The notes beneath the pieces are model-generated. The model saw only the letters and a list, made by a program, of their open reading frames with translations. It had not been told where the DNA came from and searched no databases. 64,000 nucleotides of DNA from Eledone cirrhosa (taxonomy: Eukaryota): contig OZ024741.1 in the NCBI GenBank assembly GCA_964016885.1, positions 150,846,001 to 150,910,000 of the forward strand, given 5' to 3'. Position numbers and translations under genes: made by a program. Positions 3,800 through 64,000 of the stretch are shown piece by piece (position 1 is the stretch's first letter; each line of letters starts with the position of its first letter).

Positions 3800-4930
3800 C
3801 AATTAAAAGCAGCATATCATCACAATATAAACCAATAGCTACAATCTTAAGTTAGAAATAGAGAATAACTATAAAATTGTTAACTTTTTAGACGTAACAT
3901 TAACACAGGGCTGTACTATCCTATCCATTCCATAACATTAATGAGAATCTAAACTATGTAAGTTTTAACTCTAATCATCCTAGAGCTCTCAAGAACACTA
4001 TTGTAAATTCTATCCAACAACGTATTTCACGCATATCCGCTAATAAAAACATTTTTGACGATAAGGCAGAATATTATAATGAAGCTTTAAATAGAGCAGG
4101 CTATATAAATAAGATTAAATACACCAACAACAGTGATAAGGAAAATAACCCTACTATTAATTATAATTACAATAAAAAATGTAACTGAAACTCGAAAACT
4201 AACAGAAGAAATAGAACTAGAAATATAATTTGGTACTCACCCCCATTCTCATTAAGCGTTAAAACACCTTTAGCAAAGCTATTCTTTAAAGCACTAGATA
4301 AATGTTTTCCAAAAGCCCATAGAGACCACTCAATCTTTAACAGGCATACAATAAAATTATCTTACTCTACTACTATGAACATAGCACAAAATATAAATAG
4401 AATCAATAATAGAAATTTAAACCATAACCAAAATAGCAGTAATATCTCTAGCAATATCCAGCATATTAGTACCGTTCCGAATAACATCAACACCGCTAAA
4501 TGTAACTGTAGAGTTAAATCAAACTGTCCTTTAAAAAATAAGTGCTTAGATAAGGACGTGGTCTATAAATGCACAATCAAAACCAGTGATAATATATTTA
4601 ACTATGTAGGTTCAACTTCTACAGACTTTAAAAGTCGTTGGAATAATCATAAATGCTCTTTCCGAAAACTTGATAAAAAATCTTCAACTTCTCTATCAAA
4701 CCTGATATGGAAATTAAATTGCAAAAATATGGACTATTCTTCAACTTGGGAAATAATTTCGAAAGCACCTGCCTACCGAAACACAGCTTTATCTTGATTT
4801 TGCAAATTGTCTGTTGAGGAAATTTTCTTCATACTTAAATGTAAGAACTCTATTAATGTACGAATGAATTTATTTAGTTCTTGTAAACATCACCTAAATT
4901 CAACGTTTAGAACTATATATAAATTATAAT
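3800..4930 (+). mobile_element. Penelope-like element remnant (RT thumb/linker + GIY-YIG endonuclease), with stops
   Basis: Translates as NFLDVTL...SNHP...IIWYSPPFSLSVKT...CNCRVKSNCPLKNKCL...VVYKC...YVGSTSTDFKSRWNNH (ORF 4375-4797). Confidence 0.9.
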
Positions 4931-6436: not shown

Positions 6437-9430
<2,994 letters not shown>

Positions 9431-11088: not shown

Positions 11089-11460
11089 TGTATATATAGT
11101 GTATTTTGCAATACACTGTATGCTTAATCAAAAGCATTTCGAAGACCCTACGCTATTGTTTTAGAGTAGTGACAGTCTCACTTACATTAATTTTCAGCAA
11201 CCGCTCTGTATAATCAGTTCCTGATTATTACTAGAATTCTATAAGAATCAAATATTCATGATTTTCAGCAAACAGCAGGAGTAGTTAGCTTTGATACGCA
11301 TCAAAAAGTGCGAAACAGAGCTCTGTCAGCTTTATCTCCCCTGTTTGCTGAAAATTAAAGTAAGTGAGACTGCCACTACTCTAAAACAATAGCGTAAGAT
11401 CTTCGAAATGTTTTTAATTAAGCATAGTGTATTGCAAAATACACTATATATACATTCATA
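11085..11460. repeat. fold-back element with degenerate hammerhead-like 3' half in each arm
   Basis: Arms at about 11085-11200 and 11345-11460; GAAAUGCUU uugauu AAGCAUA|cag stem III is present but the 5' core is not canonical. Confidence 0.6.
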
Positions 11461-12199: not shown

Positions 12200-14347
12200 T
12201 CTCGTTTGTTTACACCAACCAACTCATCTCGCTTCTCTCGGATCGGTTATTTATTTGCGGCTTTAAGCGTTTGATCCAAAGTGCTTCCTTGATTAGTAAC
12301 GTCCCGACGTTGCGTTCTGTCGCTAGCACTGTGACAATGGGCCTTCCGTCTTTGTTTCCGCATTTGGGTATGTGTTTCCGGGAAGACGAGGCCCTGGTGT
12401 TGATGTGCTCCTTGATCAGGATATGTAGCAGCCGGATTGTGCTACCGATATAGTAGTCGTTGCACTTGTCACATTCTACCCTGTATACAACGTATGTGTG
12501 TAAGCAACAGTTCGTATGGCGCATCGGACAGTTTATGAGGGAACACGCGTCAGTCGATTTCCCGGGTTTCCTGGAGAGGCATATCCGCAGGGAGGGGATC
12601 GAGTGGGCCAGGTGGATGTCAAGGCCCTCTCTCCATATAGCCCTGCGGATAGCGTTAGTGGTATTCTCGCCCAGGTGTGGTATTTTAAGGAAGCACTTGC
12701 CTTGGGTGTTTCTCTACCTCTTGCGTCTGGTGTCTCTGACTCTGTTTGTGAGCGAGGCAGGGTATCCCTTCGTCTCCAGCACCCTGAGGAATCGCTTGGT
12801 GTGGGTGACACCACTCGCGGGATCGCTACATCTGTTTTTAATTCGCGTGATCTCGTTCGTAATGTACCCTCTTTTAGCAGTTAGGGAGGGCAGACTTGTA
12901 GTGGACGAACAAGTCCCTGCAGGCTGCCTTGCGGTAGAAGTTGGTGTGGATGCCTCCCTGCTCCGTGATGTTGATTCGGAAGTCGATGAGGGCAAGTGAC
13001 CCGTCGTCGCTGGGGTGTTCAACACTGAAATCAATGTTCTCGCCGTGTTGAACGTCTCATAAATCCCGCTCGCCATCTCCTGGGAAGATGTGAGGATGAG
13101 GATGTCGTCCACGTACCTTGAGAAAAAGGCGACGGCGTTGGGGTGGAAGGTGTTGAGTACCTTGCGCTCGAGGCTGTCCATGTATGAGATCGCTAGCACA
13201 CCCGACAGGCTTGAGCCATGGGCAGCCCCGAGGTTTGCTGGTATGTTTGGTCGAGAAAACCGAAGTATGTGTTGTCAACGACGACGGATAGGAGTTGGTG
13301 GATGTCAGTAGGGGTGAGCCCGAAGCAGTGTAGGTCGGTAGGTTGGACGCGTTCCATCAGTACATCAACGACCGGGAGCGCCGGAACCGAGGTGTAAAGA
13401 GCGACCACACCAAGGCTGAAGGCATATCTGTTAGCCTTTCTGGTGTCGGGATCCATTTGATGCAGGCGCTCCAACCCCTCCTCGGAGCTGTTTACGTGTC
13501 CCGGCAAGGTGTCTAGTATGGGTTTGAGTATTCTGGCTAGGAGCCATGATATTTTGTAGAGCGGTCCTTCCACGCTCGATGCAATGGGTTTGATCTTCAG
13601 GTCGGGTCCCTGTTTGTGTGTTTTCACAAGGTGGTAGAAGGCGGGTAGTCTGCTGTTCCTCGTGAGGAGGTTGTACCTGAGCTTCTTCGGGAGCTTCCGC
13701 CGGTCACAGATGTTGGTCCAGGCGGCGTTGATGTGCTTCTCGGTCTGCGCGGGAGTGATTTCTGTGACTTTGGAGTGTTTTAACCTGATGAGTTTAGTGT
13801 CAAGTTTGTGGCTGGTGGGTGGGGTGGAGTGGGTTGTCGAGGTGGTAAGTTGGGATTTGGGGAGGGTTGTGTGGGCGCTGTTATTTTCCGTGGCGCTGTT
13901 GATGGCGGTCACCCATTTAAGTTGGTAGGCGGCTCGACTGAAGTTGGCTTCGATGTCGAGTTTGAGTCTATCGTCGAGTCGTTGTGAGACGATGAACTTG
14001 GGTCCGAGACGTAGGAGTTCCAGCTCATCGTTCGTGAGGGTACCGGTTAGGTCGGTGACCAGGTGCGTCGCATCGTTGAGGTGTGGCTTGGTGTTGGTGG
14101 ATGTGGCGGCGGCGGTTGTTACGTTGCTGTTTTTCACGTTGTTCTGGTCTGTCTGTTTGTTAGTGTCGGTGTTCTCGTTGTGGAGTTTAAGCAAGATCCA
14201 CTCATATTTCCGCTTGAGCCGTTTCTTTTCGTGTTGGACTCTGGAGTGGTAGCACTGGTCGATTGCTTTTGTGATTTTAAGGAGCAAGTCGCTGGGTGTT
14301 ATTGTTAGTCGATGTGTCCGCTCTGATAGTGTCTGCTTATGGATGTG
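12200..14347 (-). mobile_element. Penelope-like retroelement, RT + GIY-YIG, frameshifted and 5'-truncated
   Basis: ORFs 13193-14287 (LRLGPKF, FYHLVKTHK, ALYTSVP, QTSGLPM), 12714-13199 (RYVDD) and 12210-12524 (VVYRVECDKCNDYYIGST...KEH...KEALWI..LKPQIN). Confidence 0.95.
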
Positions 14348-14380
14348 TATATATATAATATATATATATATATATACACA

Positions 14381-14977
14381 GCGACAGCGGCCACACCCCG
14401 GTAAACCGCCTTGGCTGGCGGGCCGAACCAGGTTGAGGGTAGCCGGATGGGTCTGAAACCCCCCGGTGAGTTAGATAGGGGATGCCTGCCCCTGCATGCG
14501 AAGACTGGACCCGTCGGAGTGAGTGGAGGAGGACAACATCGTCCCAACGGTCACAAAGGCAGCGACAGCAAGTGGTGTAGAGCGCTAAGGCACGGCAAGG
14601 CACTACAGACGTCGTGGCCATCCACTGCAGCCAAGGAAGTCCCTGGTCTTGACGGTCCTCCGTACCACCGGATTCTGGCTTCTGCGGCCGAGTGAGTGGG
14701 ACCGTTTCTGTGCACTGGCCCTCCCACTATAAACCTTTCCCGCACAGGTTTCTTCTTTAGCGTGCACTCCCATAGCCATGCGGCGGGGGCGAGAGGTGGA
14801 GGTAACAGTTCGAGCTAACCTCTGGGAGTTGCCAGTCTGACACCGGTCTCTTCCCCTGCCCCCACTGTCCCCGGACCTGCAAGTCAAGAATCGGCCTCCA
14901 CAGCTACCTTCGTGCCCACGGCAGACGGGAACAACAATAAAGAAGATGTCATCATCGTTTACGATGGACAACCAAGA
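14381..14977 (+). mobile_element. bipartite non-autonomous RTE/BovB-type element (5' UTR joined to 3' end)
   Basis: GC-rich RTE-like 5' UTR to about 14750; 14851-14940 reads FPCPHCPRTCKSRIGLHSYLRAH* (RTE C-terminal C2H2-like); tail hairpin catcgt-tt-acgatg followed by gacaaccaaga; flanked by (TA)n. Confidence 0.8.
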
Positions 14978-15057: not shown

Positions 15058-15093
15058 CTTTACCGGTTTCACAGTTCTTATGCTTTTCAAAAG
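15058..15093 (-). ncRNA. type I hammerhead, U3-A8 variant (family H-B)
   Basis: cuu UUGAAAA GCA uaagaac UGU GAAAC cg GUA|aag. Confidence 0.75.
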
Positions 15094-16454: not shown

Positions 16455-16971
16455 TGAATTTTAAAGGTGATGAGATGACTGATGTCATCTACCTTGTTCT
16501 AACAGAAACAAGGAGAAGCAACCGACAGCGCTGTTTCTGTCTGATTGGCCGTTGTCAAGGTTGCGCACACCTTCCTTGCCCCCAACTGGAACTCAAATAA
16601 ACCGAAAACACATAAGGTTTTGGCTTATGCATATGCGCTGATTAACCTCATTTGCATACGGAGCTTAGGCCGGCTCAGTTTGAATGAGAATTAGAATTAG
16701 AATATTCGCTCCAGTATAGCTGTAGACATACGTGTATATGAAGGTTGTATATTGAATAATATACGATATGTTTACGCCACGTGGCTAATCAGTCCATGTA
16801 CATAAGCAATAATCCTATGTTTTCGGCTTACTTAAGTTCCATTAGGAGGCAAGGAAGGGAATACATGACATTGACAACGGTTAAGCAGCCAGAAACAGCG
16901 CTGTCGGTTGCTTCCCCTGGCTACTACTAGAACTAGGTAGATGATGTCAGTTGTCATCCTTAGAATTTATA
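16455..16971. mobile_element. fold-back element (family H-D) with two divergent U3-A8 hammerheads
   Basis: Arms at about 16455-16558 and 16871-16971; HHR 16518-16564 (-): gcaacc UUGACAA cGGC..a GAAAC agcgcu GUC|gguugc; second copy 16871-16911 (+) lacks the 5' strand of stem I. Confidence 0.8.
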
Positions 16972-23924: not shown

Positions 23925-23964
23925 GCCCTTGAGAAGCCCTTTCGGGCGAAACGTACGTAAGTGC
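23925..23964 (+). ncRNA. type I hammerhead, U3-A8 variant (family H-E)
   Basis: UUGAGAA GCCC uuuc GGGC GAAAC guac GUA|agugc; stems II and III are perfect, stem I is imperfect. Confidence 0.7.
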
Positions 23965-26739: not shown

Positions 26740-26942
26740 GGAAAAGAAAATGCTGACAAATTGTTCACAGTGAAAAATAGTTTAATTAGGAATAAGTGAG
26801 AATTAGTAATAGTATTAGTTAGTATTCAGTTTTGGTTTTAAGTTTTACCGGTTGCGCATTTCTAATGCTTTTCAAAATAATTTTGAGATAGATCGTCCGT
26901 GATGTTTGCTCTAGAGCAAACATCACGGACGCTCTATCTCAA
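26740..26942 (-). mobile_element. diverged H-B copy: U3-A8 hammerhead (26844-26877) plus 30-bp-arm hairpin (26883-26942)
   Basis: UUGAAAA GCAU uagaa AUGC GcAAC cg GUA; hairpin centred at 26912/26913. Confidence 0.7.
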
Positions 26943-32400: not shown

Positions 32401-34457
32401 TTTTCTTTATTAACCACAAGGGTTCACATAAAGTAGACATTAAGGACAGTACAGGACAATACAGGACGGTACAAATGGGCATTTCTGCGTGTAAAAAAAC
32501 AGAGGTTGAAATAAAATAACAAAGAAAAATTCCCCAATAGGGGGGAGACTTCCAAGGGACATTTGTGGAGAAAGCCCATTAAAAGACCACAGTGGCCCTG
32601 ACCACCAGGGCAAGTGCCCTCTCCCAGTTTTCCACCTTTAATTTACAGACACATACTCAGAGAAGGCCCATTCATTCGGGCCATACTTGCTTCTCTCACC
32701 CATCTTTCAACAAAATGCTGGGAAGAGAGCACTTCCCTCTCTACCCTGATTTTCCTTTTCAAATGAAATTTGAAAAAGTTAATCAGGGCATCACCGAAGA
32801 GGTAAGTGCTCGTCTTCAGCCCTTTCAAACGTGTCCACCATACTATCTCTTTCGCCATGGCCACCAGACAGATAAAAACTGCCTGCCCTTCCAGGCTAAA
32901 GGAAGGGGGTGGGGCAATCCTCACGATGGACTCAGCTGATAGCTGGATCCGTCCTACACGTGACAGCAGGTGTTCGACATAAACCCACAAGTCAGCAATG
33001 CTCGGACACTGGACGAGTGCGTGCAGGACGGTTTCGTCGCCCTGCGCGCATCTCGGACATGCCCGGCTGACGGCACCTCCATGCCTGTAGAGTTTATCCC
33101 GAACTGGCAAAGCTCCTCGGTAGCACTGCCAGGCCAGGGATTTCTGGAAGTTGTCCATAGGCCCCGGCCCGAAAGTCCTTCCGAAGAGATTGGCTAGTTG
33201 ATTTTCGTCGACGCCTAGAGTTTCTCCAAGTACGTCGTCGCTCTTCCCCTCCACTAATCCCCTATAGAACGCCAAGGTGGAGTTTCCACCGATCACATTG
33301 CCCGATTGGTCGAGGGCTGTAAGCGCCTGAAGACATTCCAGTCTCCAAGCGCTCCCTCTCGGTCTTCGCTTGACCCAGGACTGCAGCTCCGTCAAGGAGA
33401 CGAGCTGGGGAAAAACGTGTCTTGCAAACGGCGACCACACCTGATCACCGTCGAGGAAGAGGTGGAGATGTCGTAGCCTGAGCGCGTGTCTGCGCATCAT
33501 CAGCCACGGCATGCCCAGCCCTCCACGTAGCGGGTGTTGACAGCAGATAGACCGCCTGACCATCGGAGCGCGTCCCTTCCACAAGAAGCGAAAGAGCAAA
33601 CGCTCCAGCGCAGTCAGGCGGGGCTTAGGACAAGGTACGACGGTCAGGCGGTAGTAGATGACGGATGCGATGTACGCATTCGCCACCTCCGCTCGACCTT
33701 TTAGGGATAGCTTCCTCTCGGCCCATTTCTGGGTGAGAGAAGCCACCCTGCTCGTCACCTCGTCCCAGTTTTTGTCCGTCTGGAGGTCTGGACCGAACCA
33801 GACCCCTAGCAATTTAACCGGTCCGTCCGTCCAGCGCCCGACGACGCTGTTGGACGGCATGGACCTGCCTCTCCAGGTGCCGAGCTGCAGGCCCACTGAC
33901 TTTTCCTGGTTGATCATTGCTCCTGTCACCGCTTCGTATTCTCTTAGTGTAGTGCCGATCGCCTCGATGTGTTTGGCGTTCGACACCACTACGGTGACAT
34001 CGTCGGCATATGCTGACACGGATCTTCCGCATCCTAGTTCGCGCGGGACCCCCCTCAACGTCTCCAGTTTGTGCAGTAATGGCTCGAGAGTCAATACGTA
34101 CAATAGGGACGAGAGGGGACATCCTTGGCGGACTGAGCGCATGATGTTGAACGGTTCCGAAAGGTGACCGTTCACTCTCACTACAGAGCAGATGTCGCTG
34201 TGCATGGCAGCGATCCAGCCTCTGAAGACGGGCCCAAAGCCAGCCGCCCTCAGGACTGCCGCTAGGTAACGATGGTCGACCCTATCGAAGGCTTTCGACT
34301 GATCTAAATTGATCAAAGACCCACCCGTGCCAGGTTCCCTAGCTACCCTCTCTACGATGTATCGCATGAGGTGGAGGTTGTCGTGGATGGATCTGTCGGG
34401 AATGGCGCATGTCTATGCCTCTCCCACCAGACCACCAACGACAAGCCCCAACCTCAA
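32400..34457 (-). mobile_element. Tx1/L1-clade LINE ORF2 3' part (RT + CCHC), 5'-truncated
   Basis: ORF 32643-34367: LDQSKAFDRV, VRQGCPLS, YADD, CPRCAQGDETVLHALVQC; AATAAA at the 3' end followed by (TTA)n. Confidence 0.97.
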
Positions 34458-34485: not shown

Positions 34486-37400
34486 TTGAAGGATGAAATT
34501 ATGATCGAATGGATGAAAATGAAAGAATCTGACATGGGGCAACGAAACACCCTCCCTAAGATCCAGAACTCCAAACAGAACCAAAAGATAATACACAAGA
34601 CTAACATAATTCTCAAAAACATTATCATCACAAACAAACTAAACATTACTGATTTAAATCATCTCTATTATGCATCGGCTAAAGTCACCACTCACTTATG
34701 TGGAGTGAAGATGGAAAAACAAAGGAATTCCCACAAGAAATCTACTTGGCAAGAGAACATCAATCGCCAAATAAACCTTCTCCGATCTGACATAGAAATT
34801 TTAACAAACTATAAAGTAGGTGAACATGTTAAATAAACTAAACTTAGAAAATTGAAAAGAAAGTACAGTATAAAATCAACAAGTGACATAGACATGTTGA
34901 TAGAAATAATCAAACAAAAAGTGTCGGCCAAAGCTGCTCGTATAAGGCGCTTTGAAAAACGATCTAGATTCTATAAGGACAATAATATGTTCAAAAACAA
35001 CCAAAGAAACTTCTACAGAAAAATTAGTAAGTCAACAATAACTGCTAAATCAATACCACCCAAGGAGGAAGTGCAAGAATTCTGGGAAAAGATCTGGGCC
35101 GAAGAAAAAGTTCATAACATACATGCCCCATGGATAGACAGACAAATGAAAGATACAGCTCACCTTGAGGAACAAATATGGGAAAATATAACAGTTGAAC
35201 AGTTGCGCTTGGCTCTAAGAAAAACCAGTAAATGGAAATCCCCAGGAAAAGACAAAATACAAAACTTTTGGATAAATGCCTTCACAGAGTCTCATGAGCT
35301 GTTAGCCCAACTTTACAATGAAATAGTTAAGGAGCCAGAAAAGATACCATCATGGCTAGTTAACGGCATTACATTCCTGCTTCAGAAGAATGATGAGACA
35401 AACAATCCCAAAAATTACAGACCGATAACTTGCTTGACCACAAGGTATAACATTTTAACATCAGTCCTAACTGAATACACATATGACCACCTGATAACAA
35501 ATGACCTATTTCCCATTGAGCAGAAAGGGTGTAAACGAGGCTCATATGGCTGTAAGGATCAGCTTCTGGTTAACAAAATGATACTGGAAGATTGTCATAA
35601 TAGACACAAAAATCTATCGATTGCTTGGATAGATTATAAAAAAGCATTCGATAGTTTGCCACACAGTTGGATTGAAAAATGTTTAGAGATTTTCAAAATA
35701 TCCCCCGTTGTCAGGAGGTTTTTGTCATTCAGTATGAAGACATGGAAAACGACACTCCTTTTGAATAGTGAAACAAAATCACTGGAAGCTGGAGAAGTTA
35801 ATATTAATTGTGGAATTTTTCAGGGTGACTCTTTATCACCGCTTTTATTCTGCATCGCACTTATACCATTAAGTAAAATGCTCAATGAAACAAAACATGG
35901 ATATAAAGTCTATGACAAAACCATTAATCACTTGTTCTACATGGATGACCTGAAACTATTTGCAAAAAATGATGAACAATTGCAAGGGCTATTATCCACT
36001 GTGGAGCAGTTCAGTGATGACATTAAAATGGAGTTTGGACTAGACAAATGCGACAAAGCAACGTTCACCAGAAGAAAGCTGCTGAAGAGTTCAGACATTA
36101 ATCTTGATCGGGGGAACGTGATAAGAGAAATCTATCAAGAAAAAACTTACAAATATCTAGGTGTTTGTGAAGGAGACGGTATCAAGCACTCGACAATGAG
36201 GGAAAGGATAAGGAAGGAATGTTACCGCAGAGTAAGAGCAATCTTAAGAACGGAATTGAATGCAAGGAATAGGATCGATGCCATAAACACGCTTGCCATA
36301 CCAGTAGTAACCTACAGTTACAATGTCATCAACTGGTCAAGCACAGAGATCCGTAGGCTCGATACAAAAATTCGAAAATTCTTAACCATGCACAGAATGC
36401 ATCACCCTAAGGCAGATATAGATAGAATATATCTCCCTAGGAAAGAAGGAGGACGTGGGTTAATCCAGTTAGACATTGCGTTGAAAACTGCAACAATTGG
36501 ATTATCTACATATCTAAGGGAATCACATGATTGGATGATCAAACTCGTTTTGAAACACGAAAGCATCAAAAGATCATATTCCATTACAAAAGATGCACAA
36601 AGATACAGTAATGGACTACAAATTTCAGAAGTCCCATTTACTGCTGAAATGGAAAACACAGAAAAAGCAAAGCAGGTAAAAGTAACTGCAAAGAAAGAAC
36701 TGCTACAGAAACTGGCTAAGAAATGGCAAGAAAAGCCTCTGTATGGAAAATACCCAGAGCGAGCTAACAATCCTGATGTTGACAAAACTTTAACCCATCA
36801 GTGGTTGGCATCCTCTGGACTGAAATCAGAGACTGAAGGACTGATTATATCAGCACAAGATCAGTGTCTGCCAACAAAAAATTACCAAGCCAACATAATA
36901 AAAAATGGATGCAGCCCATTATGCCGTGTATGCAAAAAACAACCAGAGACCATTGACCATATAATTTCAATGTACAGTCCTATAGCTCCAACCGAATACC
37001 TAAACAGGCATGACAGAGCTGCACAATACATACATTGGATAATGTGTAAGCATTTTGACCTGCCCCATCAAAAGAATTGGTGGGAGCATCAACCACCTCC
37101 CATACTTGAAAAAGATCACATCTCAATCTTGTGGAACTTTAGCACCCAAACAGACCGAAAAATAGATGCAAATAGACCTGATATAATATTGAAGGACTTC
37201 AAAAAGAGGGTATGCCTGCTAATTGATATGTCTGTTCCAATAGACAAGAATGTATCTATAAAAACATTTGAAAAATTGAGCAAGTATAAGGACCTGGAGA
37301 TAGAAATTGGAAAAATGTGGAAATTGAGATCTAAAACAATACCAGTGGTTGTAGGCGCTCTGGGAATGATACCTAAGGGGTCTAATGATTACTTATCGCA

Positions 37401-37651
37401 AATCCCAGGAAACGCGCGTATAGGAGAAATACAAAAGATAGTACTAATGGGAACTGCCCATATACTAAGGAAGATTCTGTCAATATAAGTACATCACAAG
37501 TCTAAACACTAAAGATGCATGTGTGAGTATGTATGTTCTTTCTTGAACATGGCGGACCTTGTTGTCTCTTGAGGTCACTGGTTGTGACTTGGTGATAACT
37601 CGTATGAACATAAAGCAAGATAAATGCAGGTGTAATAATAATAATAATAAT
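34486..37651 (+). mobile_element. R4/Dong LINE family B, 5'-truncated, 878-aa RT+RLE ORF
   Basis: ORF 34852-37488: [54 protein letters not shown]; in-frame stop at 34834; (TAA)n on both sides. Confidence 0.97.
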
Positions 37652-47372: not shown

Positions 47373-48635
47373 AACAAGTGGTGCTCTTTAAATTGGTGGT
47401 AAACGCACTTTCTTGGCATCCAGGAGATGTGAGAGTTCGAATCCTGGCAACAGACGTCTCTGCCTACATTTCTTTTTAAATTCAAGAGGTACTTTACCCT
47501 ATTTTCTGAACTATTCTTTATAGTGATCGATTATTAAATGAATGGCTGTTTATATGCGCACGTACACACACACACATACAGATGTATTAGCAGCAGCGTA
47601 ATTCATATACGATATGCTTATGTATGATAAAGATGTATAAAGTTTCGCCATGACAGTTTAAGCTGTGGTCGTGACACGTTTATCTCAGTAACTGTGTGAA
47701 AGTACTAGATACTAATGTTTTAGGATTTTGTATCAATCATTAGTGACATTCGCAGATAAACCACATTTCGGGTCGTTTTCTGCTAGCATGTGTAGTGTGT
47801 ATATTGATATTATACGCAAGTATATATGCATGTAGATATGATAAATCAAATAAAATCGTAATTGACAATATACACAAAAATTGAACGAAGACTGCGTTAC
47901 ACTGTCTTCTGTAATCAGTAACGTAATCCATGATACATTAAAAAAAAGACGATATTATATATAAACTGCATTAGGAGAAAATTAGTGACGGAAATATATG
48001 AATGTTTATTTAAGCGATCGCTAACCGGAAGTGTTGACATTTGAAAATTTTAAAGAAGTCAATCTTTAAATAAATAATAAAATATTTTTAATCAACAGCT
48101 ACGAAATTTAGTAGATAAATTATGTAATATTCATTCATTATTTATTCAAAGTAATCCAACTTATTTTACAAACGGGATAAAAAAAAAAATTCTGGATGCA
48201 GTCCCGCACTCCTTACTTTATTATAGTTTAGATTTACTCACTTGGTACTGAGATGTGTATAAACTATTGTATACGCAGACCTGTTTACACTCCCCGTCCG
48301 ATGGGGAGATCTCCCACCCACTTAGGGGTGGGTCAGAGATGTCTTCTCTTGTGAAAATGTGTATTAGCTTTCATTATATAAAATCTCCCAATTTTGCCTC
48401 ATTTCTCCCCGTTTGGGTTTTTAGAGGTTGGTAGGTCTGTATATATATATATATATACATTTGTGGAATATAACATGAAATATTCATTTGTATATAGCGC
48501 GTTCTTGATTGCTAATCAATTCCAGGTAAACCCAACGCACGCTGTATAAAAATGATATATGCCTTCATATGCACCTCCGAGGGAAATTTAGTAACCTACA
48601 TTATCTCTAGGTGTGATGTTCATACAATCCTTACC

Positions 48636-48713
48636 CCTGTTGATAAGCCGTAGGATTCTGTGACACAGCCACTAATTTTTGGCGAAACAAACTCTTTCTG
48701 TAGTTTGTCCAGG
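48636..48713 (+). ncRNA. type I hammerhead, U3-A8 variant, long stems (family H-K)
   Basis: ccug UUGAUAA GCCG...UGGC GAAACAAACU cuuucugu AGUUUGUC|cagg; 4-bp stem I and 7-bp stem III. Confidence 0.85.
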
Positions 48714-48919
48714 AGCTTAATAGTTATTGAAATGGTTAGTACATTTTAATTAATTTCTTTCCGGTTATTATATATTTTCCATTTTTTAGTAGATTATATG
48801 CATTGCACCAAAGTGGTTTTTCAACCCACGTAATTCAAAACACTTCTTTGTGTGTTCATTTCTATATATTATATTATATTTATATATATATTAGTAAACG
48901 TAGATTTACCGCGAGCTCG

Positions 48920-49509: not shown

Positions 49510-49830
<321 letters not shown>

Positions 49831-50260: not shown

Positions 50261-50429
50261 TATATATATATATATATATATATAACCAAAATTAAATTAA
50301 GGATGTCATGTCTGAGAAACATACGCCAATATATATATGTCAATTGATTTCTAATTGAATGCTATATATAGTGGTAGAACACTGGAAGGTATTATCCGTA
50401 GTGGTAGAGCACTCAGTTCAAGAACTCAT

Positions 50430-51524
50430 GCCACCCTCCCACTGTTTTTAGAAACTTCGTAAATAATATCAGTACTAGAATCTCAAACCTCCCTTCTAAT
50501 AAGGCTATCTTTGACAGAGCGGCACCCTACTATAACACGGCGTTAGCTAACAGCGGCTTCTCGCAACCTATCACTTACTCTCCCACTAACAACAACAGAA
50601 ATAAGAAAACAAAGCGTAACAATAGACAAACTATATGGCCCTCTCCACCCTTCTCACTCAACGTTAAAACCAATGTAGGCAAAACATTTCTGGCCCTCTT
50701 AGATAGACACTTTCCCATAGGTCATAAATACCGCTCCATCTTTAACCGACACCAAGTAAAACTAGGATACTCCTGCGCTAAGAACATGAAGGCCCACATC
50801 ACCAACAGCCCTAAGGGGCAACACCCCAGGGTGCTTTTGCCGTAACTCCGAAGCTTGGCCCCTTCAACAGCAATGCAACACACCCGCTGTAGTTTATGAA
50901 CCTGTGGTCACTTCCAACCGACCAAATCAACCACAGGAGGTCAAATCCTATGTGGGTATGGCGGAGGGCCGATTTAAAGAACGCTTCCTGAAGCACCAGT
51001 CGATCTTTAGGTACCCGGACTGACGTTCATCCACGAAACTCGCGAGCCACGTATGGTCCCTCAAGGACTCAAGTATAGACTCCTCCATTCAATGGGAAGC
51101 CATCACTAAGTTCAAGCCATATGCAAGGGGAAATCCGTCGTGTGGACCATGTATTGATGAACGAATAAATATTCTAAAGAGATTACGCAATAGCGATTGC
51201 CTAAACTTAAGAAATGAATTCTTCACACGTTGTCCAGACGTCTGGAAACACCTCTTACACAACTACAAAGCTCCGGATTGAATTACAACAACATCCTAAT
51301 TTTCTTATCAACTAGAAACTTTCGGACTTTCGCATTTATCTCCCTTACACCTCTCGCACGCAATTTAGTATTGCCTGAGTGAAGTGACCGTTTCTGCGCA
51401 TGCGCGTTCGTACGGTTGTCCTTCCTGTTCCGTATAACCATCATGTCCATTACGAGCTGAGGATCCGCTAAGGTGAAACAGTTGTTCTCGGTTAGGTATG
51501 GTGAACTAACTGTTGTGTAACCAC

Positions 51525-63039: not shown

Positions 63040-63850
63040 ACGTCAAAAATTAGAAGCTATTTATTTAGTGTTTTTTCCTGACTTTTGCGAGGCTTGGAAT
63101 GTAGAGGAGGCTTTATGAAGGCAATTTGAGAATAATTCACTTTTTTTGTTAATTAAATTTTCATAATTAGTAATTATTAATAGGGTCTCCATAGACAAAG
63201 ATTGCAGTTAGGTGATATTGAAGAATTCAAGTAGATTCGACTATTACACAGCTTCGACCAAGAAATCGAGTATTTTAAATTTTTGTCTTTTAACGACAAT
63301 ATAAGTTGTGATAAAGAAGTCGAAGATTTCCTATTAGGATTCGACAAAGAACATTTGTGATTCGAAAATCTTAATTTAAATGTCGATGAAGTTGCACCTA
63401 TATAGTTGTATGTGATGTTATTTGCTTTTACGGTGCATTTATAGACCAGATTGCTATCCAGACAATTATTTTGCAGAGGGCAATTTGATCTATTTCTACA
63501 ATTATATTTCGATTTATTGTTATTACTATAAGTTGGACAATTGACATTAGCATTGTTAGTACTTTGAAGTGTTCTATTGATTATGCTTAGATTAATGTTA
63601 TTGTTATTCCTAGTATTAATATTGCTAGTGTTATTATATTCATTATCGCTAATTGTTTGTTGATTATGATTTAAAATTCTACTATTTATTTTTGCGATGT
63701 TCTGGGTCATATTCATAGTTGTAGAATAAGAAAGCTTAATTGTGTGTCTGTTAAATATGGAACGGTATTTGTGTTGAATGGTGAAGCATTTATCTAAAGC
63801 TTTAAAGAATAGATTTGCGAGTGGTGTTTTTATTGCTACAGAAGCTGGGG
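63040..63850 (-). mobile_element. Penelope-like remnant (linker + GIY-YIG), related to 3800-4930
   Basis: ORF 63177-63716: NCRNRSNCPLQNNCL...LVYKC...YIGATSSTFKLRFSNH...CNLCL. Confidence 0.9.
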
Positions 63851-64000
63851 GGGGGGGGGCATATAACTGATTTAGTTCTGATTTTTTTCACCGATTTATT
63901 CACGGTATTGGTGTTTGTATTATAATTTTTTAAATCTCGTTTATATATTTTTGTCTTATTTTTATCAGGATTATAATTCAAATTATTATTATCTATATAT

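What the first reader, a model, noticed from the sequence alone, without database searches (positions are those of the whole stretch)
48636..48713. Compensatory U3-A8 catalytic core in four unrelated hammerhead families
Seen: nine motifs read UUGANAA instead of CUGANGA. Family H-K has UUGAUAA (48640, with perfect ccug/cagg stem I and 7-bp stem III). H-B has UUGAAAA/UUGAGAA (6574, 6693, 15058, 26844, 49642). H-D has UUGACAA (16518, 16871). H-E has UUGAGAA (23929). Positions 3 and 8 change together in all nine, while position 7 takes all four bases. Established: C3-G8 is a tertiary Watson-Crick pair of the active fold, N7 is unconstrained, and U3-A8 keeps activity but is uncommon in nature. Inference: this reflects selection for catalysis rather than decay. 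About a third of the HHRs here belong to a variant class that CUGANGA-based searches would miss, possibly rate-tuned.
Basis: partly seen in the sequence, partly recalled or inferred. Interest (0 to 1): 0.85.

Follow-up and report, generated by a model that had tools for sequence, protein, structure and literature searches.

The report
U3-A8 hammerheads of Penelope-type retroelements
The nine motifs are real hammerhead-shaped RNA motifs carried by four families of jumping-gene repeats whose core pair is U-A instead of C-G; that swap is already published for such elements, cutting activity is untested here, and the only fresh point is that it marks about a quarter of this genome's hammerhead motifs and likely arose more than once.

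Summary
Observation confirmed, novelty low. All nine U3-A8 cores exist, and U3-A8 is the family state: H-K 27 of 30 genomic copies, H-B 46 of 50, H-D 27 of 35, H-E 35 of 35, with no C3-G8 copy. They are hammerheads of Penelope-like elements (H-B, H-E, linked to RT/GIY-YIG genes) and of non-autonomous retrozyme-like units (H-D about 310-330 bp; H-K about 520 bp). U3-A8 is in print: Perreault 2011, and Cervera and De la Pena 2014 (about 1,300 copies in Schistosoma Penelope elements); this scan noted it before on other genomes. Corrections: nine copies are at most four events; at least six of nine are damaged; U7 of the focal copy is private. Added here: in 1 Mb of evenly spaced genome samples, 44 of 192 motifs are U3-A8 and 136 C3-G8; 16 families are C3-G8, 9 U3-A8, 1 unresolved; one retrozyme lineage holds sister subfamilies of both states and needs at least two switches. 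This supports pairing constraint in replicating lineages. Nothing supports rate tuning; no RNA data.

The parts
48636..48713 (+). H-K type I hammerhead motif, U3-A8 core (base 3 = 48640), 3-bp stem II with long insert, 7-bp stem III; predicted cut after 48709
48567..48880 (+). 5'-truncated copy of the H-K non-autonomous repeat (unit about 520 bp in longer copies); end approximate
6574..6609 (-). H-B hammerhead motif, U3-A8, GAAA box damaged; one arm of an inverted pLTR pair
6693..6728 (+). H-B hammerhead motif, U3-A8, stem III palindrome damaged, private G7
15058..15093 (-). H-B hammerhead motif, U3-A8, G10.1-U11.1
26844..26878 (-). H-B hammerhead motif, U3-A8, GAAA box damaged
49642..49677 (-). 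H-B hammerhead motif, U3-A8, intact core and palindromic stem III; pLTR fragment of a Penelope-like element
16518..16564 (-). H-D hammerhead motif, U3-A8, C10.1/A11.1 mismatch, palindromic stem III; member of a 310-330 bp retrozyme-like superfamily
16865..16911 (+). second H-D motif, inverted to the first, stem I damaged
23925..23964 (+). H-E hammerhead motif, U3-A8, palindromic stem III, first stem I pair damaged in this copy; pLTR fragment of a Hydra-type Penelope-like element
11285..11332 (+). missed tenth U3-A8 motif (family F11, A9 decayed), same superfamily as H-D

Best explanation
The motifs are type I hammerhead motifs in the terminal repeats of Penelope-like retroelements (H-B, H-E) and in short non-autonomous retrozyme-like repeats (H-D, H-K), with U3-A8 as the family state, likely kept paired by selection for self-cleavage in the few copies that replicate. 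Shown: anatomy, family states, links to RT/GIY-YIG genes, covariation across families and between sister subfamilies. Inferred: the element RNA is cut at the NUH site, through dimers where stem III is a short palindrome (H-B, H-D, H-E) and as a monomer in H-K, to release or circularise the template. Inferred: C3-G8 turned into U3-A8 by two transitions, probably through a short-lived mismatched or wobble state, several times independently; retrotransposition then copied the state into thousands of inert genomic copies. U3-A8 is best read as a tolerated alternative, not a tuned one.
For: Family tallies; exact patterns: H-E-type stems U3-A8 1,648 matches, C3-G8 0, controls 0; H-K 7 of 7. H-B continuous with a GIY-YIG end in 37 of the 40 best hits, 95-100% identical, Pfam RVT_1 below cut-off and GIY-YIG above it; H-E 35 of 70 rows with the endonuclease upstream, mostly about 383 nt, RWK, DKT and CxCX5C motifs of the Hydra clade. 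Tandem periods 309-321 bp in the H-D superfamily. Sample of 100 x 10 kb: score >=15 C3-G8 58 (0.2 expected), U3-A8 23 (0.8), C3-A8 1, U3-G8 0. Sister subfamilies: first 100 of 1,245 pattern matches are U3-A8 76, C3-G8 19, other 5 (hand count); tree without core columns needs 3 changes, U3-A8 F11 nested in C3-G8 relatives at 100/99, one U3-A8 clade rejected at p-AU 0.028. U3-A8 families are not AT-richer (0.377 against 0.377 GC). H-K core differs 0.033 per cell against 0.066 in flanks.
Against: No cleavage or expression data. 5' ends of ORF-bearing H-E and H-B copies do not pile up at the predicted cut; many run through the hammerhead. The focal copy's hammerhead fold is 2.1 kcal/mol above its lowest fold, family median 4.3; fold z-scores are unremarkable. 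U3-A8 did not rescue in one type III hammerhead. In the anole element, hammerhead mutants did not affect insertion in vitro. The family count is not corrected for relatedness, and the tree bootstrap had not settled.
Confidence: 0.8

Rival explanations
1. U3-A8 is an adaptive, rate-tuned core: slower cleavage favours longer-than-unit transcripts or circles, and lineages are selected to switch.
For: Repeated switches; U3-A8 subfamily F11 outnumbers its C3-G8 sisters 76 to 19 in the listed matches; U3-A8 is poor in at least one context.
Against: No link to architecture: U3-A8 occurs with palindromic and long stem III, in autonomous and non-autonomous elements, as does C3-G8. Copy number reflects many things. 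No rates measured.
Confidence: 0.12
2. The cores are catalytically dead or nearly so; U3-A8 came from AT-ward mutation in master copies and spread by descent, with the motif kept for structure or protein binding.
For: Both changes are transitions toward A/T in a 36% GC window; no footprint of cleavage at 5' ends; cleavage dispensable in vitro for one element; low activity of minimal motifs.
Against: Independent drift at 3 and 8 would give mismatched families: none clear of 26; 19 C3-G8 against about 4 expected from the marginal counts; no GC difference. The 3-8 pair belongs to the active fold.
Confidence: 0.07
3. All U3-A8 families descend from one switch whose ribozyme module moved between elements by recombination.
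For: F13 monophyly is weak on the masked tree, and short modules can recombine; p-AU 0.028 is modest and the group was tested after a first tree was seen.
Against: Stems of F11 match its C3-G8 sisters, not other U3-A8 families; H-B and H-E proteins share only a 39-residue stretch at 36%; each element type also has C3-G8 families (F50, F16).
Confidence: 0.05

Closest known systems
U3-A8 minimal hammerheads of Cercyon Penelope-like elements in Schistosoma mansoni (Cervera and De la Pena 2014, PMC4209133; parts 1-2 of 4 of the text read)
   Same: U3-A8 core in pLTR hammerheads, found in large numbers (about 1,300 against about 2,000), missed by the standard descriptor, mostly single truncated copies, some inverted pairs, palindromic stem III
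   Different: Different host; here at least nine families, on Hydra-type and Neptune/Nematis-type elements and on retrozyme-like units; stem III is 4-10 nt palindromic or a full hairpin rather than absent; sister subfamilies with both states are traced
Natural U3-A8 covariants (Perreault et al. 2011, PMC3088659; section 8 and passages read)
   Same: C3-G8 covarying to U3-A8; U10.1-U11.1 mismatch and weak stems also noted
   Different: There 'several examples'; here about a quarter of a genome's motifs
Animal non-LTR retrozymes (Cervera and De la Pena 2020, PMC7229834, passages; Li et al. bioRxiv 10.64898/2026.07.22.740005, abstract and first part of results)
   Same: Tandem units of a few hundred bases with one type I hammerhead, low GC, present in molluscs, related to Penelope pLTRs
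   Different: Circular RNA not shown here; the passages read do not mention U3-A8; H-K unit (about 520 bp) is seen only as partial tandems
Hydra-clade and Neptune/Nematis Penelope-like elements (Craig et al. 2021, PMC8557442; section 11 and passages)
   Same: H-E carrier has RWK, DKT and CxCX5C; H-B carrier has GxKF, DKG and CX2-5CxxC; (TA)n targets; hammerheads in pLTRs
   Different: Placement is by motif, no reference tree; H-B carrier has a separate upstream ORF

Membership tests
Type I hammerhead ribozyme | Core boxes (N3)UGAN(N8)A, GAAA, UH around three helices, open at stem I | tested here: met
   stem I pairs 26-30 of 30, stem III 25-30 of 30 in H-K
Type I hammerhead ribozyme | Watson-Crick pair between 3 and 8 | tested here: met
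   U3-A8 in family majorities; covariation
Type I hammerhead ribozyme | G10.1-C11.1 pair | tested here: inconclusive
   met in H-K (22 of 30), H-B, H-E; H-D has Y10.1/A11.1; mismatches here are known in natural motifs
Type I hammerhead ribozyme | Rfam covariance model match | tested here: not met
   no hammerhead among the 150 rows shown of 203; 53 weaker rows unseen
Type I hammerhead ribozyme | Self-cleavage after H17 | not testable with these tools
   needs an assay
Penelope-like element pLTR hammerhead | Lies in the repeat 3' of an RT-GIY-YIG ORF and again 5' of it | tested here: met
   H-B and H-E:
Penelope-like element pLTR hammerhead | Same link for H-K and H-D | tested here: not met
   0 of 39 and 0 of 35 rows with an endonuclease hit within 1.6 kb upstream; the ORF near one H-K copy has its own C3-G8 motif
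Non-LTR retrozyme | Short tandem non-coding unit with one hammerhead | tested here: met
   H-D superfamily periods 309-321 bp, up to 11 copies; H-K only partial tandems, 523 bp
Non-LTR retrozyme | Expressed as monomeric circular RNA | not testable with these tools
   no RNA holder listed
Hydra clade of Penelope-like elements (H-E carrier) | RWK, DKT, CxCX5C linker, C-terminal endonuclease | tested here: met
Hydra clade of Penelope-like elements (H-E carrier) | Placement in a reference RT tree | not tested
   no reference sequences in hand

The most novel reading that the evidence does not exclude
This genome holds on the order of 100,000 or more hammerhead motifs, a quarter of them U3-A8, and the catalytic 3-8 pair has flipped repeatedly and independently, including between near-identical sister retrozyme subfamilies (F111 C3-G8 to F11 U3-A8). 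That makes a natural experiment on how an essential tertiary pair crosses a two-step fitness valley and on which surrounding bases license U3-A8.
Probability: 0.65. Interest if true: 0.4.

Novelty: new member of a known kind. Interest (0 to 1): 0.22.

Why it matters
Practically, CUGANGA-only searches would miss about a quarter of hammerhead motifs in this genome, a caveat already made for Schistosoma in 2014. The sister subfamilies that differ in the 3-8 pair give matched natural constructs for asking why U3-A8 works in some backgrounds and not in others, and whether Penelope-type hammerheads need to cleave at all. It is not a new ribozyme class or mechanism.

Tried and rejected
Rfam scan: only microsatellite-driven microRNA hits in the rows shown. 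Decay of C3-G8 copies: rejected, 0 C3-G8 in the four families. Link of H-K to the nearby ORF in L132: rejected, the ORF's copies end before H-K and carry their own C3-G8 motif. Cleavage footprint: a few copies begin 8-12 nt after the predicted cut, but 30 H-E and 30 H-B ORF-bearing copies show scattered 5' ends, so no claim is made. Free-energy folds gave no support. AT-bias by composition: no difference. The cross-family blast was noisy from (TA)n; only the H-D superfamily links were used. The pattern fits the H-E stem length only (first 100 rows all H-E-like), so it says nothing on H-B. The family 19 row was misregistered and was redone. Papers not held: Przybilski and Hammann 2007 and Lunse et al. 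2017; they are recalled only, and the supplements of PMC4209133, PMC8557442 and PMC9901934 were not read, so U3-A8 tallies for cephalopods or measured U3-A8 values could be there. Searches for prior cephalopod reports and for C3U/G8A or U3-A8 terms found no paper on hammerheads of this host group in the held library.

Full report
Setting. The window is 36% GC and rich in (TA)n and retroelement fragments. It lies in a 3.0 Gb genome, G000:C2:150846001-150910000. It looks like a cephalopod genome; that is my inference from recalled repeat features, not tested.

Observation. All nine cores exist. The focal motif is a well-formed type I hammerhead: stem I 48636-39 with 48710-13, core 48640-46, 3-bp stem II with a long insert, GAAA 48684-87, 7-bp stem III, predicted cut after 48709. 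A structure-aware scan of the window gave, at score 15 or more, 6 C3-G8 (0.025 expected), 4 U3-A8 (0.225) and no mismatched cores. The nine are copies of four families, and at least six are damaged against their family. The focal U7 is private, 1 of 30. A tenth U3-A8 motif at +11291 was missed.

Family states. Among the 30 best loci per family: H-K U3-A8 27 of 30, U3-G8 2, C3-A8 1; H-B 46 of 50 rows, H-D 27 of 35, H-E 35 of 35; C3-G8 in none (rows include one misaligned piece in H-B, one nearly empty row in H-D and two duplicated H-E copies). These sets are the best hits to a U3-A8 query, so I added exact patterns: H-E-type stems gave 1,648 U3-A8 and 0 C3-G8 matches, controls 0; an H-K pattern with 3 and 8 free gave 7 of 7 U3-A8.

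Carriers. H-B is the pLTR hammerhead of a young Penelope-like element: 37 of the 40 best hits span the endonuclease end to past the hammerhead at 95-100% identity, and the same repeat precedes the ORF. Its protein has GxKF, DKG and a CX2-5CxxC linker; Pfam GIY-YIG passes its cut-off, RVT_1 falls just under. H-E lies mostly about 383 nt after an endonuclease end (35 of 70 rows linked) of an element with RWK, DKT and CxCX5C, the Hydra-clade motifs; Pfam gave no hit for its two segments. The two proteins share only a 39-residue stretch, so these carriers are far apart. C3-G8 families exist on both element types (F50, 22 of 24 links confirmed; F16, 2 of 2). H-K and H-D have no endonuclease link (0 of 39, 0 of 35). 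H-K occurs as partial tandems of about 520 bp. H-D shares flanks with families F5, F11, F111, F18 and F23, which form tandems of 309-321 bp, the size of animal non-LTR retrozymes.

Genome-wide share. In 100 evenly spaced 10-kb stretches of contigs C1-C7 and C28, the scan found at score 15 or more 58 C3-G8 (0.2 expected, 5 shuffles), 23 U3-A8 (0.8), 1 C3-A8, 0 U3-G8 and 4 others. By homology to 31 family seeds: 136 C3-G8, 44 U3-A8, 12 others of 192; counting one per family and stretch, 81, 29 and 9 of 119. So 23-28% are U3-A8. The scanner misses bulged stems such as H-E's, and tandem arrays inflate C3-G8. Of 26 families with 3 or more members in 2 or more loci, 16 are C3-G8, 9 U3-A8 (F24 is a doubtful hammerhead) and 1 unresolved (F31: C3-A8 twice in one locus, C3-G8 in two). 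The Fisher value of 5e-7 leaves out F31 and ignores relatedness. GC content does not differ between the classes.

Repeated switching. A pattern covering F11 and F111 with 3, 7 and 8 free gave 1,245 matches; the first 100 listed are 76 U3-A8, 19 C3-G8, 1 C3-A8, 0 U3-G8 and 4 others (hand count). Five C3-G8 rows share stem II with the commonest U3-A8 form. A tree of the superfamily with core columns dropped needed 4 changes unmasked (86 rows) and 3 after masking unshared flanks (73 of 86 rows; 1 dropped for no overlap, 12 for other states). F11 is nested in C3-G8 relatives (100/99), which points to C3-G8 becoming U3-A8. One U3-A8 clade was rejected at p-AU 0.028, tested after I had seen the first tree, and the bootstrap had not settled. 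If F13 is one clade, two switches suffice; I claim at least two.

Mechanism. From published work: C3 and G8 pair in the active fold, and U3-A8 covariants are natural and were active in vitro (PMC3088659). Penelope hammerheads with short palindromic stem III likely cut as dimers and slowly (PMC4209133; PMC6765202 passages). I infer that selection for cleavage in replicating copies keeps the pair Watson-Crick, that U3-A8 is reached by two transitions, and that genomic copies then decay neutrally. H-K's core differs less than its flanks (0.033 against 0.066 per cell, 30 related copies), which fits but is weak. Against: 5' ends do not mark the cut; the hammerhead fold of the focal copy is 2.1 kcal/mol above its lowest fold, and 15 of 30 H-K copies keep an intact core with at most one broken pair; U3-A8 did not rescue in one type III hammerhead (PMC9901934 passages); cleavage was not needed for insertion by the anole element in vitro (PMC11167929 passages). 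Rate tuning has no evidence.

Prior art and verdict. Cervera and De la Pena 2014 describe this very covariation in Penelope hammerheads of Schistosoma, missed by their first descriptor, with about 1,300 hits against about 2,000. Seven earlier notes of this scan report the same variant or close ones in other genomes; I had read the papers before seeing them. I found no paper on hammerheads of this host group in the held library and no account of repeated switching, but two key papers were not held and supplements were not read. The finding is a true, known variant in a new host, with a modest new evolutionary angle. Interest 0.22.

Noticed in passing
L133:5397-8860 (G000:C2 near 375.82 Mb); copies L295-L324: The young H-B element has two overlapping ORFs (about 400 aa, then RT-GIY-YIG in the -1 frame) with a U_UUU_UUA slippery heptamer in the overlap, kept in 28 of 29 copies read; ORF1 is 400-401 codons in 23 of 29. 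Likely a programmed -1 frameshift. Craig 2021 mentions frameshifted ORF1 in a figure legend without the clade being clear from the text read. No strong downstream hairpin (z -0.97); pseudoknots not tested.
   Followed up: partly
G000, 1 Mb sample L165-L264: Hammerhead density is about 86 strict motifs and about 190 homologous remnants per Mb, which extrapolates to the order of 10^5 genome-wide; inflated by tandem arrays and drawn from eight large contigs only.
   Followed up: partly
L260:278-9566, L214, L220:6637-7693, L237:1089-2273: Tandem hammerhead arrays with periods near 420, 310, 528 and 592 bp; the 592-bp family (F8) is U3-A8.
   Followed up: no
window 16558 (-), 16871 (+), 46030 (+), 45793 (-): Several families have a mismatch at 10.1-11.1 (C/A in H-D, U/U in F1), in both core classes.
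   Followed up: no
L055:2795 and L055:-968; L211:4762; L278:-1209: C3-A8 cores duplicated within single insertions in families F12 and F31, and one G3-C8 core in an F12-like copy; possible intermediates or a third paired state.
   Followed up: no
window 5132 region of L132 (L132:5130-5180), family F50: A C3-G8 family with an atypical 3' part (no short palindromic stem III) lies about 270-290 nt after a Neptune-type endonuclease.
   Followed up: no
window 4189-4797 (+), 12210-14470 (-), 50408-50845 (+), 63177-63887 (-), 32643-34412 (-), 34837-37488 (+): Fragments of other Penelope-like elements and long LINE-like reverse transcriptase ORFs (589 and 883 aa).
   Followed up: no
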